Shown piece by piece: positions 12,772 through 64,000 of a DNA stretch of 64,000 nucleotides. Both the position numbers and the translations under genes were made by a program. How positions within the stretch are numbered: the stretch's first letter is position 1; every line of letters begins with the position of its first letter. A model generated the notes under the pieces. That model saw nothing but the letters and a program-made list of their open reading frames with translations, was not told the origin of the DNA and did no database searches. The stretch is taken from assembly GCF_053078305.1 (NCBI RefSeq), contig NZ_CP166879.1; one strand, 5' to 3'.

Positions 12772-12858
12772 AAATCCCGACCCTGAGGGGGTCGGGATGA
12801 AACTTGCTTAAGCAAGAAGCACTTAAAAAATTCGTTACACCAGGAAATCTGATGTGTT
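12772..12858 (-). ncRNA. dsrA: DsrA small regulatory RNA (Hfq-dependent; known to activate rpoS and repress hns translation)
   Basis: Minus strand reads AACACATCAGATTTCCTGGTGTAACGAATTTTTTAAGTGCTTCTTGCTTAAGCAAGTTTCATCCCGACCCCCTCAGGGTCGGGATTT, matching DsrA from memory, with terminal hairpin and U-tract. Confidence 0.88.
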
Positions 12859-21261: not shown

Positions 21262-21358
21262 TATACCTTTTTATTATTCTGTGTCATGATGCTTCCGTTA
21301 TTAGCCTTTTATCGTCTTGTTTATATTTTTTGGGCCGGCATGATGCCGGCTTTTTTTT
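21262..21358 (+). ncRNA. candidate small RNA ending in a strong intrinsic terminator (possibly RseX, recalled to lie between yedR and yedS)
   Basis: GCCGGCATGATGCCGGC hairpin plus T8 at 21337-21361 in the AT-rich yedR-yedS intergenic region, no ORF upstream; 5' end not defined. Confidence 0.3.
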
Positions 21359-32557: not shown

Positions 32558-34285
32558 TTATAATGGAAAATACTCAAACCCCGAAGCTCCTGACGACACA
32601 TACTCACCCACGCTGACTGTACGCCACTGAGAACCATCAAATGTCACCTGAAGCGGCCTGTAAGATACCCTGTCAATAAGGGTTTTGTTTCCGTCGTTGT
32701 AACCGCCAATCCCCGTAATCATTGCACCAATATCCAAATCCACTGCCCATGTAGTGCTGTCTGTTTGCGGCGCATAAGTCTGTTTATTACCCAGCCTGAT
32801 ACCCACAACCCGGCTCTTCCCGTCTGATGCCCCGGGCGGCCCCATCGGCCCGGTTTCTCCACGCTCACCTCTGGGACCGGGGTCTCCTTTCTCCCCTTTC
32901 GGTCCCTGCGCTCCCCGCGGACCAGCGGGGCCTGTTGCTCCCGTTTCACCTTTCGGACCCTGTGCTCCGGGGTCGCCTTTCTCTCCTTTCGGACCGGGAA
33001 CACCACCTCCTGCTGCAGCCTCTTCTGCCTTTGTTTTCGCTTCATTTGCCACATCCATTGCCGCCTTCACGGCCTTCGGCGTGGCTGCCTTTGTTTCGTC
33101 ATTACTGCCAGTATCACTGCTTAACTGCACCACACCTTTCTGCGTCGTGCTGGCATCCCGCTGGCTGACCGTATCCGGTTTGTTTTTTGTGCTGTAATCC
33201 ACCCGCCAGTGGAAATACCGTGTGTCGCCGTAAACCGTACAGGTACAGACCGTGCCATTAATAAACCCCGTTGCACCGTATTCGCCAATGGTGACCCGGA
33301 CTATGGCAGCCTCATACGTTCCCATCACCTCAATGACACAGCCACCCAGATTGAGTTTTCCCGGTCCGACATCCGTGATGACTTTATTCATTGACGCAAG
33401 CAGTGATGCCTTCATCATCCAGTAAGGCTGGTCAAATGCCCCTTTTTCTTTCAGCCAGGCAACAAACTCGCGTGTTTTCCATTCACCGGCCCCCGTATGA
33501 ATGTCCCGCCCGTATACTCTGGCTGCTCCCACGGTGTTCAGAAACTTCACCTTATCCGGGATATCGTCACCGTTTTTCGCTTTCTCCAGGCATCCGTCCG
33601 CTTTGTCCATTGCCGCTTTCACCGCTTTCGGGGTGGCTGCCTTCGTTTCATCATCACTGTCCGTTGCGCTGCTTAACTGCACAATTCCCTTCTGTGCCGT
33701 CGTCGCATCCGGCCCTCCCGGCTCGCCTTTTTCGCCCTTCTCTCCCCGTTCACCTTTCACACCCTGAAGCCCCTGTGGTCCTGTCTCACCACGCTCACCC
33801 TTTGGCCCCCGCTCGCCGGTATCGCCTTTTGGCCCGGGAATACCCTGCGGCCCGGTGTCCCCCTTATCCCCCTTCGGTCCCCGTGCATTCTCTGCCCGTT
33901 TTTTTGCCTCCTCCGCACTGGCTGCGGAGGCTTCCGCACGTTTCAGGATTTCCGCTGCCACCGCTTCCAGCTCTGCAAGGGCTTTCGGGTAATACTGTGC
34001 GTCTTCCAGGTCCATCAGAAATTTATTCAGCGTTCCCGGTGCAGAATCCGCCTTCACCAGAATGTCACCCACATATGACGGCGCGTACCCTTCCGTGTTC
34101 AGCGTCACCCGGTACAACCCCGGCTCAACATCCATACTGTAACTGCCGGTTTCCCCCGGCAGACCATACGCCACCGTGGTGACAATCACCGTCTCCGTTG
34201 TGCGTCGCGCTTTCAGCTCTATCGTGCATCCCGGTACCGCTTTTCCCGTACCATCCTTCAGCACACCCGATATTCTGACTGTCAT
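32558..34285 (-). CDS. stf: side tail fiber protein with collagen-like Gly-X-Y tracts
   Basis: 575-aa ORF; N-terminus [28 protein letters not shown] resembles lambda Stf; two [17 protein letters not shown] tracts and two [10 protein letters not shown]...[15 protein letters not shown] motifs. Confidence 0.85.
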
Positions 34286-34427
34286 GGATTTCCCCCATAA
34301 AAAAACCGCAGTACCGGTTTCCCGGCCTGCGGTAAAATTTGTGGTTTGTTGGTGTTAAAACGGTGCCATCCGGCTGACCACCCTCAGCAACCGGTCGGCG
34401 GGGGATATTCTCCCCCGCCACGGTTTC

Positions 34428-34568
34428 TTACTGCTTACACTGTAAGAACGCCGCAATCTCCGCGCCCGCTATCCGGAACCGGAACTCGCACAGTGAACTG
34501 TGGGTGATCCAGATAATGAGCACTACCGTGATACAAATCACGGTGGTTTTTAACGGTTTTTGCGACAT
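34428..34568 (-). CDS. Hok/Gef-family type I toxin-like small membrane protein
   Basis: 46-aa ORF below the track cutoff: MSQKPLKTTVICITVVLIIWITHSSLCEFRFRIAGAEIAAFLQCKQ; preceded by AAGGAG; TM helix plus LCExRxR...E[IV]AAF pattern. Confidence 0.55.
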   Translation of the reverse strand: MSQKPLKTTVICITVVLIIWITHSSLCEFRFRIAGAEIAAFLQCKQ

Positions 34569-34766
34569 AAACGCTTGCTCCTTTTACGGAGAGGCGCTAA
34601 CCTTCCACTTGTTGAAGGTAGGAACGTCAGGCCTCGGGTTAAACATGAATGTTTGTCCGGGGCCTTTTCACATCCGGCCTTCAGGTGCTCCCTCCGGCCA
34701 TCAGCCAAAGGCACCCGCGCATAATGTACGGTTTTTGTCTCCTTCCGGCAATCCGGCTCCTCATGA

Positions 34767-37700
34767 TCACGAAATACTGATACCCGCCGTGGACTTCTTC
34801 ATCACGACAACCAGCAGATCGCTGATACTCGCTGTCGGGTACCATCCATTCACCAGCCAGGCAGACACAGAAAACTCCAGCGTCATATGCCCCCTTCCTG
34901 CAGGCATATCAATCACCCCTGAATACACCTGAGACTCAGCCAGCGCCGTCCTTTCAAAAAGCACCCTGCCGTTACATTTCACCATCAGCCGGCATGATGA
35001 ATAAATATCGTTATGCTCTCTCTCATGTTTAGCGCCGCTGAAAGCCACTGCCGGGATCACAATTTGCCGGTCAAAAGGCTGATCGTCATAAATCCTGACG
35101 GTAATGGTCCCCGATGGCCACCGCTCCGGTGCGCGGGAGTCCCGCGGGAAAGCCTTCCCCACGGTTTTAACAATATCGCCTTCAATCTGGTTGGCAGACA
35201 GTTTTCCAAGTATCCGGCAGTTCTGGTTAATGGTCACATTATTGAGCGTGCCCGAGTTCGCACTGATATGTCCGCTGATGTCCGCATTGCGGGCCGTCAG
35301 CCTGCCCTCCGGCGTCAGGGAGAACGTCGGGGGATTGCCGGACGAGGTGATGCTCACTGCAAACAACCGCTTCAGGAACACATCGTTCATGAACAGCTGA
35401 TTCCCCTGCGCCACAAACAGCGGCGTGGTGTTGCCGTTCTCCGGGTTAATCATCGCGATACGGTCCGCCTGCAGCAGTATATTGCTCAGGGGCTGGCCAT
35501 CAGCATCCTCAATCCCCGCACCAATACCGGCAACATACGGAATGCCGTTTTTCGTTTTCTGCACCTTCAGCATGTACAGCGCAGCCAGGTCGTTATTTGT
35601 GTCTGTCTGCACCCGCTGTATCTGCTGTATGGTGGCACTCTGGTCTTCCAGGGTTTTACTGACCGTCTGCGTGATTTCATTGCGGGTTTCGGTGATGGTG
35701 GTCTTCATCTCCGCCATCTCATCATCAAGCTGGCTGTTATCAATCAGCTCCCACATCCCCTGTGCCAGATGTGTCTTCCCGATTTCTCCTCTGAAAAAGT
35801 CCAGATACCCTTCCGCATCATTGCTGGCCCGGCCACTGGCTTCCACAAACGCAGATTTCCCCACCAGGTTGACGCTGCGCACATAAAACCAGAAATCCTT
35901 CCCCGGCTTAATGTGCGGGCCGGAGACACTCCACTGGCGGCCTGTCCCCAGATAACGGGCAGAGGTTTCCACCTGAGATGTGTCTGCGATTTTTGCCTCC
36001 GAAAACCAGAACTCAAATTGTACCGTCGGGTCATACACCGTAAGATGCGGGACCGCCGTTATCTGATAATACCCCGGCGTCAGCTCAATGCTGTCCGGTG
36101 CTGCCGGGGCGTTAATCCGGAACGTGGTGGTGGCAGGTTCGCCCTGCTGGCCGTAGCTGTTTATCGCCCTGACCGTCAGGGTGTATTCCCCGGGCGGCAG
36201 GCCACTGAAACGGTGCTCCGTATCGGCAGTGATGGCGCTGGTCACCAGGCGGCTGTTTTCACCACTGCCACTGGTCAGGCGCAGACTGAAGCGCACGCCC
36301 TTCACCACCCGCGGCGTGTCCCATTTTGCCAGCGCCATATACTGGCCGTCTGAGGCACTCACCTCCACCGTGAGGTGCTGCACTGCCGGCGGGATGACGC
36401 TGTTCAGTGAACCGGAGAGCGGCTCAAAGCGGGCCCCGTTATCCACGATGGCTTCTTTTTCCGGTACGTGCTGCACTGCCGTGATGGCAAAGGTGCCGTC
36501 CGTGTTTTCCCGGATGGAAACACAGCGGAACAGGCGACGACGCAGTGACGGCAGGGAGAGTCCCCACACACCGTATGTCTCCACGCCATCCGGCAGGGCG
36601 CTGACCTGTATCCGGTCAGGGGCGGGGTGTGCAGTGATGTCCACGCGCACCGGCTTACCGCTGCCGTTAATCAGGTTCACCGTCGATGTACCTGCTTCCG
36701 GCAGTGTCACCTCACGGTCCAGCGTCAGTGTGCGGCTGGCGGCATCGATGGACAGGATGCGTCCACCGGTCAGGGTCCCGGCATAGTCGTTATCACAGAT
36801 TTCAATGATGTCACCGGGCGTGTGCCGCAGCCCCTGTGACCCGAGCATGAAATCCACCGTCTGTGTTTCCAGCAGTTCTGTCTTTATCACCCACAGTCCG
36901 GCACGGTGGGCCTGACCGCGGCTGGTACAGCCGAACGCATCCATCTTCAGCAGATTGCGCCCGTAGCGCAGGATGGCGTCCGGGTCTTCCACCAGTTCCG
37001 TGGAAGTCTGCCAGCCGTTCTGCGGGTCAGTGTAATTCACCTCCACCGCCGTGTGCCGGTCCTTCAGGGCACTGAAGCTGTAGCGGAACCCCACGCCGTT
37101 ATCATCCACCACCACATCGCTGTTGGTGTACGGCCACACCACATCCGACGGACGGTCCTGAACGAACGTCAGCGTCTGGCCGTTCCATACCGGCATACAG
37201 CGCATCGCCGAGCAGAAATCCCCCAGGACATCCCACACCTTACGCTGCTGTGACAGGTACGCATTGAAAGTCATCCGCGGCTCTGTTCCCCCGAAACCAT
37301 CCGGGACCGTCTGGTCACAGTACTGCCCGATGGCATACAGTGCCCACTTGTCCACGTCCGGGGCCCCCAGGCGTTTTCCCATCCCGTAGCGCGGGTGGGT
37401 CAGCATGTCCCACAGGCACCAGGCCGGGTTATTGCTGTATGCCGGTTTCAGACTCCCGTCCCAGATACCGCTGTAGGTGCGTTTTTCCGGGTCATAGTTT
37501 GACGGCACCTGAATGATGCGACCACGGATATGGTAGTTCACCGTCAGCTGCTGGCCACCAAACTGCTCCGCATCCACCTGCAGCCCCACAATGGCCGTGT
37601 TCGGGTAGCACTGTTTCACATCGATGATTTCGGTGTATGACGACCACAGCGTTCTGTTCTGCAGCTGGTCCGTGGTGCTGTCCGCCGTCTCCCTGACCAT

Positions 37701-38240
37701 CCGGATGTTAAAGGGGCGCTCAGGGAGATTATTCAGAATCACCGACGTCAGGTACTGCGAGGTGGTCTTGCCGTTAATGGTGATATCCTTCTCCGTCACC
37801 CAGTGCCCGTTACGCTCAAGCTGAATCAGCAGGCGGACAGAAGAGGGATTACGGTCACCCTTTGAGGTGGTCTCCACCAGTGACTGTACCCCGAAGGTGA
37901 CCCGCAGACGGTCAATGTTCGCTGACGTGATGGTGCGCGTCACCGGCTTTGCCTTCGTCACCTCCACGCCCAGTGCGGTTTCCGCCCCGGAGGACTCAAA
38001 GCCTTCCGGCGGTGTCTGCTCCTGCTCCCCGGCACGCCAGACGGCGGTCACACCGTGTATCACAGGATTACCGTCCGTGTCCGTCAGCGGGGTTTTGTTC
38101 ACCAGAATACTCTGCAGTCCCTTCACCGGGCCTTCCACCGGTCCCTCACCAATGGCATCAATCACGCTCATCATCTGCGTGGATTTGAGATTGTCCTTCG
38201 CCTCACGCGGTGTGTGCCCCTTGCCGCCCCCTTTACCCAC
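34767..38240 (-). CDS. J: host specificity protein J (central tail fiber)
   Basis: ORF 34767..38291; GTG start at 38240 gives [22 protein letters not shown] aligned to lambda J N-terminus; similarity along most of the length, C-terminal 150 aa divergent. Confidence 0.92.
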
Positions 38241-38280
38241 TCTGTCCCCCTCTCCTGTCTGATGTCTGAATCTGTTTATG

Positions 38281-38314
38281 CCCAAAAACAACAGGCACCC
38301 CGGAGGGTGCCTGT
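38281..38314 (-). terminator. intrinsic terminator-like hairpin upstream of J
   Basis: Minus strand: 9-bp stem CAGGCACCC/GGGTGCCTG, loop, then TTGTTTTTGGG. Confidence 0.5.
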
Positions 38315-63132: not shown

Positions 63133-63833
63133 CTGCCCGCATCTCACCATGCGGGCTTTTTTTATCCATAAGAAAGCCCCTCCGGAGAGGGGCTGGAGTA
63201 GCGCTATGTACCGTTCATTGCATGATGCCGGGTGCCTCCCGGTGAGTTCAGCCCGGTGCCACCGAACCCGCGTCATTCTCGCTAACGATCATCAGAGACC
63301 ATACCGTACACCAGCCGCCCCTCCGCACAGGGGGATTCATCATGCAGAAATTTTTTAACAAATTCTCAGTCGGGAAGACAACCTTCAACTGACTGAATTG
63401 TGAGCAACATAGCATTTAACGGGGAACCTGTTTTCTGCAGTAAAAAGGCCCACCGGAGCGGACGGGCCTGGAAGGATAGCGGTCATGTGATGCCGGTTTC
63501 CCGGTAACTCAGCACCGGTATCTGAGTCAACGTTTTCTCTACTGGGTCATTTCCGATACGCCCTGCCTGCTGACAGGCTTTCATCACATCTGAAAATATA
63601 GCACCCTGACTGATACTGTAGTACCCAAGGTTCCAGAAACTGTGATGTATCCGGCACAGAAAAGCCCCTCCGGAGAGGGGCTGACGCTGCGTATCTGTAT
63701 CATCATGCGCATGGTGCCGGGTGCCTCCCGGTGAGTTCAGTATCAGCACCTGAACCCGCACAGAAAGGATAAGGGATGTAACCAAACACCTGTCGCTGAT
63801 ATGCCCCTCCGCTCAGGGGGATTCACCATGCCA
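63133..63833. repeat. imperfect direct repeat (two copies, period about 488 bp) of a hairpin-rich element upstream of the esterase gene
   Basis: Shared blocks gcccctccggagaggggc (63176 / 63664), ccgggtgcctcccggtgagttcag (63228 / 63716), cagggggattca(t/c)catgc (63319 / 63806); additional hairpin plus T7 at 63133-63158. Confidence 0.8.
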
Positions 63834-64000
63834 GTTTCTTTTAACAAACTCCCCGCAAATCAGACAACTGTCAACCGTCTGAATTGTGAGACATTTAAAA
63901 TTTTCGGGGCAACAGGAAGACAATCATCACGACACCGGCAACCAGCGACCGGCACCAGATTTAACGTATGTGCACACAACCTGAACCGGCATCAAAAAAC

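What the first reader, a model, noticed from the sequence alone, without database searches (positions are those of the whole stretch)
34286..34766. Hok-family type I toxin ORF where lambda has lom
Between J and stf there is no lom-like outer membrane protein gene. The minus strand instead encodes a 46-aa peptide (34428-34568), below the ORF-track cutoff, with a Shine-Dalgarno (AAGGAG), one TM helix and the C-terminal pattern SLCEFRFR...AEIAAF that I recognise as Hok/Gef-like (compare LCEIRYRDGHREVAAF in Hok). Hok loci normally come with an overlapping mok frame and a short antisense Sok RNA, which would lie in the 200 bp upstream (34569-34766). This would be a type I toxin-antitoxin module in a tail-fiber hotspot.
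Basis: partly seen in the sequence, partly recalled or inferred. Interest (0 to 1): 0.6.

Follow-up and report, generated by a model that had tools for sequence, protein, structure and literature searches.

The report
Known Hok/Sok toxin cassette in prophage
The gap between the tail genes J and stf of this E. coli prophage holds a complete hok/sok-type toxin–antisense-RNA cassette that public genomes already annotate and a recent survey already catalogues, so it is real but ordinary; its sister copy in Shiga-toxin phages turns out to be the source of a published "phage microRNA" called 24B_1.

Summary
Window 34568..34428 (-) encodes a 46-aa peptide that matches Hok/Gef (Pfam E 2.5e-11; PHROG 251 E 1.8e-21). 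The leader upstream matches Rfam's hok-leader model (E 2e-9, below the gathering score). The whole 481-bp J–stf gap is a canonical hok/sok cassette:
- a promoter and a ~420-nt mRNA closed by a covarying 5'–3' helix;
- a ~58-nt antisense Sok-like gene with conserved promoter boxes and a terminator hairpin;
- an intrinsic terminator just before stf.

One expected part is missing. There is no conserved mok frame: a TAA separates the upstream same-frame ORF from hok.

The cassette is not new. The same 651 bp sits in at least 12 complete STEC genomes, annotated "Hok/Gef family protein". The exact peptide is in a 2026 Hok catalogue, and its Q46R variant was among the constructs reported toxic. The J–hok–stf layout recurs in more than 30 viral contigs.

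By-products of the work:
- The Sok tail/target segment is hypervariable between otherwise near-identical copies.
- The sister cassette next to lom in phage Φ24B gives rise to the "microRNA-size" RNA 24B_1. The 24B_1 papers I read never mention hok/sok.

The parts
34767..38291 (-). Upstream flank: tail tip gene J (1174 aa)
   Evidence: ORF list. The identical sequence is annotated gpJ in RefSeq genomes.
34723..34751 (-). Putative hok promoter: -35 TTGCCG (34751-34746), 17-nt spacer, -10 TACATT (34728-34723)
   Evidence: Coordinates. The boxes are conserved in position in relatives (TTGCCC/TAAATT in 933W). It scores 8/12 to consensus, so the strict scan did not report it.
34298..34716 (-). Predicted full-length hok mRNA (~419 nt), starting at GGGUGCC
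   Evidence: The Rfam hok-leader model starts at 34716. The MFE is -188.6 kcal/mol, z = -8.65 against shuffles. The consensus structure over 37 relatives is 98.9% paired against 29-46% when partners are slid, and 15 of 67 pairs covary.
34704..34716 (-). 5' closing element (tac-like): GGUGCC plus an extension
   Evidence: It pairs with 34362-34374 in the MFE and in the consensus. Six pairs are invariant and four covary. It aligns with GGCGCUU of the R1-type locus.
34611..34668 (+). Predicted Sok-like antisense RNA (~58 nt): 18-nt single-stranded 5' tail, 15-bp hairpin, UUUU
   Evidence: Fold. The hairpin is 34630-34664. The homologous RNA in Φ24B was detected by sequencing and RT-PCR.
34575..34603 (+). 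Sok promoter: -35 TTGCTC (34575-34580), 17-nt spacer, -10 TAACCT (34598-34603)
   Evidence: Coordinates. This non-coding stretch is almost invariant among relatives (entropy 0-0.02). It is the positional homologue of the published p24B_1 boxes TTGACT / CGCTAACCT.
34604..34630 (.). Hypervariable segment: Sok 5' tail on the plus strand, Sok-target hairpin on the hok mRNA
   Evidence: Column entropy is 0.3-0.7 here against <= 0.1 in the coding region. There are 17 variants in 75 cassettes. Every variant keeps a hairpin. Cognate duplexes are -40 to -47 kcal/mol and non-cognate ones -10 to -34.
34584..34646 (-). Upstream ORF of 20 codons (MFNPRPDVPTFNKWKVSASP*) in the hok frame. Its AUG lies inside the Sok target and its TAA abuts the hok SD.
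   Evidence: It is not conserved in relatives that have the identical Hok peptide.
34578..34583 (-). hok Shine-Dalgarno AAGGAG
   Evidence: It is partly paired with CUCC 34591-34588 in the predicted folds.
34428..34568 (-). hok coding sequence, 46 aa
   Evidence: RefSeq protein WP_000078852.1, 'Hok/Gef family protein'.
34397..34419 (-). GC-rich hairpin just after the hok stop (GGCGGGGGAGAAUAUCCCCCGCC)
   Evidence: It is present in the MFE fold. Several of its pairs covary. The terminator scan reported its plus-strand complement.
34362..34374 (-). 3' closing element (fbi-like): GGCACC plus an extension
   Evidence: It pairs with the 5' end. Homology with the 933W cassette ends here. It aligns with AAGCGCC of the R1-type locus.
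34298..34333 (-). Intrinsic terminator: hairpin 34333-34305 followed by U7, 13 nt before the stf ATG
   Evidence: Fold of -21.6 kcal/mol, z = -4.96. The simple scan missed it because the loop is structured.
32558..34285 (-). Downstream flank: tail fibre gene (stf-like, 575 aa, collagen-like repeats)
   Evidence: The N-terminal 101 aa are 85-100% identical in all J–hok–stf relatives.

Best explanation
This is a complete hok/sok-type type I toxin–antitoxin cassette. It belongs to a phage-borne 46-aa Hok subfamily and sits as a moron between J and stf of a lambdoid E. coli prophage.

Proposed mechanism, by analogy with plasmid R1 and read from the sequence:
1. A weak promoter makes a ~420-nt hok mRNA. 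Its 5' end (GGUGCC...) pairs with a 3' element (...GGCACC), so the full-length RNA is closed and inert.
2. In that closed form the Sok-target segment is also sequestered, by a 3' stretch.
3. Loss of the 3' end frees the target hairpin.
4. A conserved antisense promoter that overlaps the hok ribosome-binding site makes a ~58-nt Sok-like RNA. Its single-stranded 5' tail pairs with that hairpin and keeps Hok from being made.
5. When Sok synthesis stops, the more stable hok mRNA is translated. Triggers could be loss of the prophage, transcription shut-off, or late transcription running through the cassette.
6. The one-helix peptide then damages the inner membrane.

Shown here: the family assignment, the RNA architecture and the conserved genomic layout. 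Inferred: expression, processing, the way Sok blocks translation without a mok frame, and the biological role.
For: - **Peptide.** Pfam HOK_GEF E 2.5e-11; PHROG 251 'MokW-like host killing' E 1.8e-21; 39% identity to R1 Hok; hydrophobic N-terminal helix.
- **Leader.** Rfam RF01794 matches over its full length, E 2.1e-9.
- **mRNA fold.** z = -8.65, with 5'–3' closure. The closure and most helices are kept in 37 relatives: 98.9% paired against 29-46% when slid, and 15 pairs covary.
- **Comparison with R1.** The 5' and 3' closing elements align with those of an R1-type locus, with compensatory changes (GGCGCUU/AAGCGCC against GGUGCC/GGCACC).
- **Sok.** The promoter boxes are invariant in a non-coding stretch that lies next to a hypervariable one. 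The RNA folds as a tail plus a terminator hairpin.
- **Target sequestration.** The full-length fold hides the Sok target, and the 3'-truncated fold releases it as a hairpin.
- **Experimental support from relatives.** The Q46R variant of this peptide and the 933W/Φ24B peptide were cloned for toxicity tests in which only three other constructs were non-toxic. An antisense RNA from the homologous promoter was detected in Φ24B.
- **Annotation and distribution.** RefSeq annotates the identical locus as Hok/Gef between gpJ and the tail fibre. The cassette family is present in 1529 of 5426 complete E. coli genomes.
Against: - No canonical mok. In the R1-type locus an in-frame ATG gives a 71-aa Mok–Hok. 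Here a TAA closes that frame 5 codons before the hok ATG, and no upstream ORF is conserved among relatives. The predicted Sok duplex ends ~27 nt before the hok SD, so how Sok blocks translation is unresolved.
- Both promoters are sub-consensus, and the strict scan reported none.
- The Rfam score (48.5 bits) is below the gathering score (59), and both NCBIfam hits are below their cut-offs.
- Nothing here shows expression in this strain.
- In the predicted folds the hok AUG and SD stay partly paired even after 3' truncation.
Confidence: 0.9

Rival explanations
1. The cassette's main job is in the lytic cycle. It lies in the late operon in the sense orientation, so Q-antiterminated late transcripts carry the hok ORF and run against the Sok promoter. 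Hok would then be made late and help lysis or phage release, rather than act in post-segregational killing.
For: The cassette has the same orientation as J and stf, and its terminator sits 13 nt before stf. A different hok locus of prophage Sp5 (hokW-sokW) is switched on by mitomycin C and doubles phage release. In Φ24B the antisense-derived 20-mer was found only 80 min after induction.
Against: No expression data exist for this locus. hokW is a different, 51-aa Hok (MKQQKAM...). The conserved closed mRNA architecture with its own promoter and terminator argues for an autonomous module.
Confidence: 0.3
2. It serves as prophage-encoded abortive-infection defence or as a prophage-retention (addiction) module. 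When an infecting phage shuts off host transcription, or the prophage is lost, Sok decays and Hok kills the cell.
For: R1 hok/sok reduces T4 plating, as cited. hok genes are four-fold enriched in prophages. The position next to the tail-fibre genes is a typical moron slot, and 933W carries it next to lom.
Against: PADLOC has no matching model. [quoted passage not shown] No test was done on this locus.
Confidence: 0.3
3. The functional product is the antisense RNA acting in trans as a microRNA-like regulator, as claimed for 24B_1 with the targets d_ant and sdhB. The small ORF would then be incidental.
For: Published phenotypes of the Φ24B deletion and of the plasmid carrying the region: lysogeny bias and lower ATP. 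Hfq binds the precursor with Kd 25 nM.
Against: The 20-nt 24B_1 sequence is not conserved. The window has TAAACATGAATGTTTGTCCGGG at the homologous place, and other Stx-phage copies also differ, while the hairpin pairing is kept. The ORF is conserved as a protein, with 23 invariant residues in 7 subfamily members, and matches Hok profiles. The peptide of that very phage was among the constructs reported toxic. In vitro binding of 24B_1 to sdhB mRNA was below 10%.
Confidence: 0.07
4. The cassette is a decaying, silent remnant.
For: There is no mok. Both promoters are sub-consensus. Some relatives are visibly broken: L039 has a frameshift and L031 has a leader deletion and a GTG start.
Against: The ORF is intact and identical in many genomes. 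Entropy is near zero in the coding region and in the Sok promoter, while the structure covaries. A one-residue variant is reported toxic.
Confidence: 0.06

Closest known systems
hok/sok of plasmid R1 (type I toxin–antitoxin; Pfam PF01848, Rfam RF01794)
   Same: The toxin is a small one-helix peptide with the SLCE core. The mRNA has a long structured leader and 5'–3' closing elements at homologous positions. A short antisense RNA with a single-stranded 5' tail and a terminator hairpin is made from a promoter whose -35 box overlaps the hok ribosome-binding site. A terminal hairpin follows the 3' closing element.
   Different: Protein identity is only 39% (46 aa against 52 aa). The window has no in-frame Mok, whereas the R1-type locus gives a 71-aa Mok–Hok. 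The location is chromosomal and prophage-borne, and no tblastn match was found in 72,556 plasmids.
lom-adjacent hok cassette of Stx phages 933W, Sp5/VT2-Sakai and Φ24B (the locus of the '24B_1' small RNA)
   Same: This is the nearest relative outside the window's own subfamily: 79% DNA identity over the 380-nt cassette from promoter to 3' closing element, and 65% protein identity with the same 46-aa length. The Sok -10 box (TAACCT) is identical and the -35 boxes are homologous (TTGCTC here, TTGACT there). The architecture is the same.
   Different: There it follows lom in short-tailed Stx phages, whereas here it follows J directly and no lom is present. The Sok tail and the inner stem of the hairpin differ in sequence. 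The 933W copy has no terminator hairpin after the 3' closing element.
hokW-sokW of Sakai prophage 5 (Takada et al. 2021, PMC8621323)
   Same: It is a prophage-borne hok/sok pair shown experimentally to be a type I TA system. It falls under the same PHROG label.
   Different: It is a different locus and peptide: 51 aa, starting MKQQKAM according to the cloning primer.
Cluster '79' and peptide id 1562 of the Hok catalogue (Escalera-Maurer et al. 2026, bioRxiv 10.1101/2025.08.07.668861)
   Same: The peptide sequence is identical to catalogue entry 1562. The Q46R variant 79_1563 was cloned for the toxicity assay.
   Different: The catalogue deals with coding sequences only. It leaves Sok, mok and the mRNA structure aside and does not describe the J–stf position.
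lambda lom (Ail/Lom outer-membrane protein moron)
   Same: It occupies the same genomic slot between J and the side tail fibre gene.
   Different: There is no sequence or functional relation, and no Lom homologue is in the window.

Membership tests
[quoted passage not shown] | Peptide of about 50 aa that matches Hok/Gef profiles and has an N-terminal transmembrane helix | tested here: met
   Pfam PF01848 E 2.5e-11; PHROG 251 E 1.8e-21; NCBIfam hits significant but below cut-offs; hydropathy.
[quoted passage not shown] | Structured mRNA leader related to known hok leaders | tested here: met
   Rfam RF01794 matches model positions 1-157 at 34716-34557 (-), E 2.1e-9. The score of 48.5 bits is below the gathering score of 59. 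The model consensus ends in an SD-like stretch and AUG, so it describes the hok sense strand.
[quoted passage not shown] | Long-range pairing of the mRNA 5' end with a 3' element (tac–fbi) that closes the full-length RNA | tested here: met
   The MFE pairs 34715-34710 with 34362-34367. Over 37 relatives the 10-pair helix is 99.2% paired against 21-52% when slid, and 4 pairs covary. Caveat: the consensus was derived from the same alignment.
[quoted passage not shown] | Short cis-antisense RNA gene in the leader, with its own promoter, a single-stranded 5' tail and a terminator hairpin, that does not overlap the hok SD | tested here: met
   At sequence level: the boxes are conserved and the fold fits. 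In the sister cassette the RNA was detected experimentally. Expression in this strain was not tested.
[quoted passage not shown] | Overlapping mok frame whose translation is coupled to hok and is the direct target of Sok | tested here: not met
   No in-frame extension exists, because a TAA lies 5 codons before the hok ATG (compare the R1-type locus). No upstream ORF is conserved in 52 relatives. The window has a 20-codon upstream ORF that ends on the SD and could substitute, but relatives with the same Hok lack it.
[quoted passage not shown] | Target hairpin that presents a U-turn (YUNR) loop to the Sok tail | tested here: inconclusive
   Every variant folds into a hairpin. YUNR tetramers such as UUCA, CUAA and UUAA lie at the 5' stem–loop junction, but the loop geometry cannot be judged from sequence.
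[quoted passage not shown] | The peptide is toxic, and the antisense RNA neutralises it | not testable with these tools
   From the literature only: the Q46R variant (79_1563) was among 45 constructs of which all but three others were toxic. No Sok rescue data exist for this subfamily.
[quoted passage not shown] | Slow 3' processing that turns an inert full-length mRNA into a translatable, Sok-binding form | not testable with these tools
   Thermodynamic hint only: the Sok target is sequestered in the full-length fold and forms a local hairpin after 3' truncation.
Ail/Lom outer-membrane protein (lambda lom) | A ~200-aa beta-barrel OMP gene between J and stf | tested here: not met
   The gap is 481 bp and contains no such ORF. 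tblastn with 933W Lom finds nothing in the window.
24B_1 'microRNA-size' phage RNA | Presence of the 20-nt sequence TAACGTTAAGTTGACTCGGG | tested here: not met
   The homologous position in the window (the apical part of the Sok hairpin, mainly its 3' arm) reads TAAACATGAATGTTTGTCCGGG. The locus is homologous but the 20-mer is not conserved.

The most novel reading that the evidence does not exclude

- 24B_1 maps to the apical part (mainly the 3' arm) of the Sok-type terminator hairpin, antisense to an unannotated 46-aa hok in Φ24B.
- Its promoter p24B_1 is the Sok promoter.
- The 189-nt 'Δ24B_1' deletion removes the hok promoter, the whole hok leader and Sok, but leaves the hok ORF.
- The primers given for pUC18_24B1 span the entire hok/sok cassette.

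If so, the phenotypes ascribed to a phage microRNA would be hok/sok phenotypes. These include lysogeny bias, faster induction and lower cellular ATP. The window's copy, with a different hairpin sequence but the same pairing, shows that the structure is conserved and the 20-mer is not.

A second, weaker reading: the hypervariable Sok tail/target segment reflects diversification of antitoxin specificity among co-resident prophage copies.
Probability: 0.75. Interest if true: 0.6.

Novelty: already known. Interest (0 to 1): 0.3.

Why it matters
For the window itself it matters little. The result adds RNA-level anatomy (mRNA ends, Sok gene, closing helix, absent mok) to a gene that pipelines already name.

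The comparative work raises two testable points:
- This phage subfamily lacks the mok frame that is central to the R1 model. How Sok silences hok here is therefore open.
- The sister locus underlies the 24B_1 "phage microRNA" literature. A hok start-codon mutant of Φ24B would decide whether those phenotypes come from a trans-acting 20-mer or from a membrane toxin and its antitoxin.

Tried and rejected
- **Promoter and terminator scan.** It reported no promoter, because both candidates score 8/12 or less. It also missed the 34333-34305 terminator, whose loop is structured. The promoters were therefore assigned by homology and conservation.
- **Curated thresholds.** The NCBIfam HokA/Hok models and Rfam RF01794 all score below their curated thresholds. 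I treated them as significant but sub-threshold.
- **The search for related loci with the single peptide.** A 7-sequence alignment solved this.
- **Plasmid search.** tblastn of the peptide against plasmids found nothing at E <= 1e-5.
- **PADLOC.** No hit.
- **Search for mok.** I first recalled mok as an out-of-frame overlap. Translating an R1-type locus showed it is an in-frame extension. I then looked for that, and for any conserved upstream ORF, and found neither.
- **hokW-sokW of Sp5.** I first took it to be the sister locus. Its primers show a different peptide.
- **Specificity idea.** I compared Sok-tail variants between cassettes of the same genome (IMG/VR contigs with the same genome prefix). 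In two genomes (2529293141 and 2531839666) the window-like copies compared all differ. In 2617271340 and 2534681673 two copies carry the same variant. This is not decisive.
- **Literature.** A search for a described hok next to lom or J–stf found nothing relevant.

Full report
**The observation**

The region 34286-34766 is exactly the gap between the stop of the tail tip gene J (34767, minus strand) and the start of the tail fibre gene (34285, minus strand). On the minus strand it holds the ORF 34568..34428, which encodes MSQKPLKTTVICITVVLIIWITHSSLCEFRFRIAGAEIAAFLQCKQ. AAGGAG precedes the ATG by 9 nt. Residues ~5-24 form one strongly hydrophobic stretch.

Profile searches settle the family:
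- Pfam HOK_GEF, E 2.5e-11.
- PHROG 251 "MokW-like host killing", E 1.8e-21.
- NCBIfam HokA and Hok models at E ~1e-9, both below their curated cut-offs.
- BLASTP against R1 Hok: 39% identity over 33 residues, E 7e-11.

No Lom-like sequence exists anywhere in the 64-kb window.

**Anatomy of the cassette**

- **Leader.** Rfam's RF01794 model matches 34716-34557 (-) over its full length, with E 2.1e-9 and 48.5 bits against a gathering score of 59. The model is named "sok", but its consensus ends in an SD-like stretch and AUG, so it describes the hok leader in the sense orientation.
- **hok promoter.** Upstream of G34716 lie TTGCCG (34751-34746), a 17-nt spacer and TACATT (34728-34723). The strict scan did not report this promoter. 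The boxes are conserved in position in relatives.
- **Terminator.** Downstream of the hok stop, a hairpin at 34333-34305 is followed by seven U. It ends 13 nt before the stf ATG.
- **mRNA fold.** The predicted 419-nt mRNA folds to -188.6 kcal/mol, z = -8.65 against shuffles. Its 5' end (34715-34704) is paired to 34362-34374.
- **Comparison with R1.** These two elements align with the 5' GGCGCUU and 3' AAGCGCC of an R1-type hok/sok locus. The changes are compensatory.
- **Sok gene.** On the plus strand, TTGCTC (34575-34580), a 17-nt spacer and TAACCT (34598-34603) precede a ~58-nt RNA (34611-34668). It folds as an 18-nt free 5' tail, a 15-bp hairpin and UUUU. This is the architecture of Sok.
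- **Target sequestration.** In the full-length fold the segment complementary to the Sok tail is paired to 34378-34388. After removal of the 3' end it forms a local hairpin. This echoes the R1 scheme but is only a thermodynamic prediction.

**Relatives and distribution**

The 651 bp around the cassette are 100% identical in at least 12 complete STEC genomes. There the ORF is annotated "Hok/Gef family protein" (WP_000078852.1), between gpJ and a "prophage tail fiber N-terminal domain-containing protein". The 380-nt cassette alone matches 1529 of 5426 complete E. coli genomes. About 120 of them match at 90% identity or more, and there are up to 7 copies per genome.

A scan of viral contigs gave 79 loci. 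They fall into two layouts:
- Every member of the window-like subfamily (96% Hok identity or more) that keeps enough flank has the order J, hok, stf. The J C-termini are diverse (53-100% identity) and the stf N-terminus is conserved.
- Most loci of the 933W-like subfamily (65% protein identity, 79% DNA identity) lie directly after lom.

Over 37 non-redundant mRNAs the RNAalifold consensus is 98.9% paired, against 29-46% when partners are slid. Fifteen of its 67 pairs covary on both sides. The 5'–3' closing helix is 99.2% paired and has 4 covarying pairs. One caveat applies: the consensus was derived from the same alignment.

**What is missing: mok**

In an R1-type locus an in-frame ATG 19 codons upstream gives a 71-aa Mok that runs into Hok. 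In the window that frame holds a 20-codon ORF (34646-34584). It is closed by a TAA that abuts the hok SD, 5 codons before the hok ATG.

Across 52 relatives there is no in-frame extension and no conserved upstream ORF. Indels in the variable segment shift the frame from copy to copy, and relatives with the identical Hok peptide have no ORF that reaches the SD. The predicted Sok duplex ends ~27 nt upstream of the SD. How Sok blocks Hok synthesis in this subfamily is therefore unresolved. Three possibilities are cleavage of the duplex, a structural effect, or copy-specific upstream ORFs.

**Prior knowledge**

A 2026 preprint catalogues 32,532 hok loci and reports a four-fold enrichment in prophages. 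The window's peptide is entry 1562 of its alignment. The Q46R variant (79_1563) and the 933W/Φ24B peptide (72_1589) were cloned for a toxicity assay in which only three other constructs were non-toxic.

The authors deliberately left Sok, mok and the mRNA structure aside. hokW-sokW of prophage Sp5, which was shown to be a type I TA system that aids phage release, is a different 51-aa Hok. The finding is therefore real and correctly interpreted, but already known.

**Two things noticed on the way**

*1. A hypervariable Sok tail and target.* Among window-like cassettes that are otherwise almost identical, variation is concentrated in 34604-34630. This is exactly the Sok 5' tail and its target hairpin.
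- Column entropy is 0.3-0.7 there, against 0.1 or less in the coding region and ~0 in the adjacent Sok promoter.
- There are 17 variants among 75 cassettes, and the window's variant is rare, seen 3 times.
- Every variant keeps a hairpin.
- Predicted cognate tail–target duplexes are -40 to -47 kcal/mol, against -10 to -34 for non-cognate pairs.
- Copies within one genome are sometimes different and sometimes the same. Diversification of specificity is plausible but unproven.

*2. The source of 24B_1.* The published "microRNA-size" RNA 24B_1 of Stx phage Φ24B lies inside the sister cassette.
- Its sequence TAACGTTAAGTTGACTCGGG maps to HM208303 45711-45692. That is antisense to the leader of an unannotated 46-aa hok (45784-45924), in the apical part of the Sok-type hairpin.
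- The authors' promoter p24B_1 (TTGACT / CGCTAACCT) is the positional homologue of the Sok promoter described above.
- Their 189-nt deletion (45585-45772) removes the hok promoter, the entire leader and the Sok body with its -10 box. It keeps the hok ORF.
- The primers listed for pUC18_24B1 map to 45473-45492 and 46018-46037. They span the whole cassette, hok included. The 2023 paper, however, describes the insert as the 189-nt region.
- Neither the 2015 nor the 2023 paper, nor a 2025 review, contains the words hok or sok. The library holds no paper that links the two.
- The 20-mer is not conserved in the window or in other Stx-phage copies, while the hairpin pairing is kept.

The simplest reading is that the 24B_1 precursor is the Sok homologue of this hok family. 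The reported phenotypes, including lower ATP, should then be re-examined as hok/sok effects. That conclusion rests on sequence mapping. Whether the phenotypes follow hok needs the experiments listed under next steps.

**Verdict**

The cassette is a genuine and essentially canonical hok/sok module in a recurrent J–hok–stf arrangement, and it is already annotated and catalogued. It departs from the R1 paradigm in lacking mok. Interest in the finding as given is low. The link to 24B_1 and the hypervariable specificity segment are the parts worth following.

Noticed in passing
L084 1250-1410 (Φ24B, HM208303 45664-45824); homologous to window 34575-34680: The published 'microRNA-size' RNA 24B_1 and its ~80-nt precursor map to the Sok-type antisense RNA of an unannotated 46-aa hok next to lom. 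The published Δ24B_1 deletion removes the hok promoter, the hok leader and Sok. The listed plasmid primers span the whole cassette. The 24B_1 papers I read never mention hok/sok.
   Followed up: yes
window 34604-34630, with a partner site at 34668-34677: The Sok 5' tail and its target hairpin are hypervariable among cassettes that are otherwise ~98% identical (17 variants in 75 copies). The hairpin is kept in every variant. Non-cognate tail–target duplexes are predicted to be much weaker than cognate ones. Mosaic combinations of the two sites suggest recombination between copies.
   Followed up: partly
window 34584-34646 (-): A 20-codon upstream ORF in the hok frame starts inside the Sok target and stops on the hok SD. 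It looks like a split mok. The closest relatives lack it, because 1-nt indels shift the frame.
   Followed up: yes
window 34298-34333 (-): A strong intrinsic terminator lies 13 nt upstream of the stf start codon, inside the late tail operon. Expression of stf from late transcripts would need antitermination or read-through.
   Followed up: no
window 32558-34285 (-): The 575-aa tail fibre protein carries two runs of collagen-like Gly-X-Y repeats. These flank duplicated '[29 protein letters not shown]' motifs.
   Followed up: no
L002 (933W) and Sp5: Stx phages of the 933W/Sp5 type carry two unrelated-looking hok loci. One is the studied hokW (51 aa, MKQQKAM...). The other is the lom-adjacent 46-aa hok, which many phage records leave unannotated or call 'hypothetical'.
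   Followed up: partly
window 12772-12858 (-), 21268-21357 (+), 63164-63374 (-), 63654-63860 (-): Rfam hits above the gathering score: DsrA, RseX, and two tandem STnc100 copies near the far end of the window. No tRNA gene is present in the window.
   Followed up: no
L039 (hok 1117-1221), L031, L079: Some relatives are damaged. L039 has a frameshifted hok. L031 has a deletion in the leader and a GTG start. L079 has a duplication in the 3' region.
   Followed up: no
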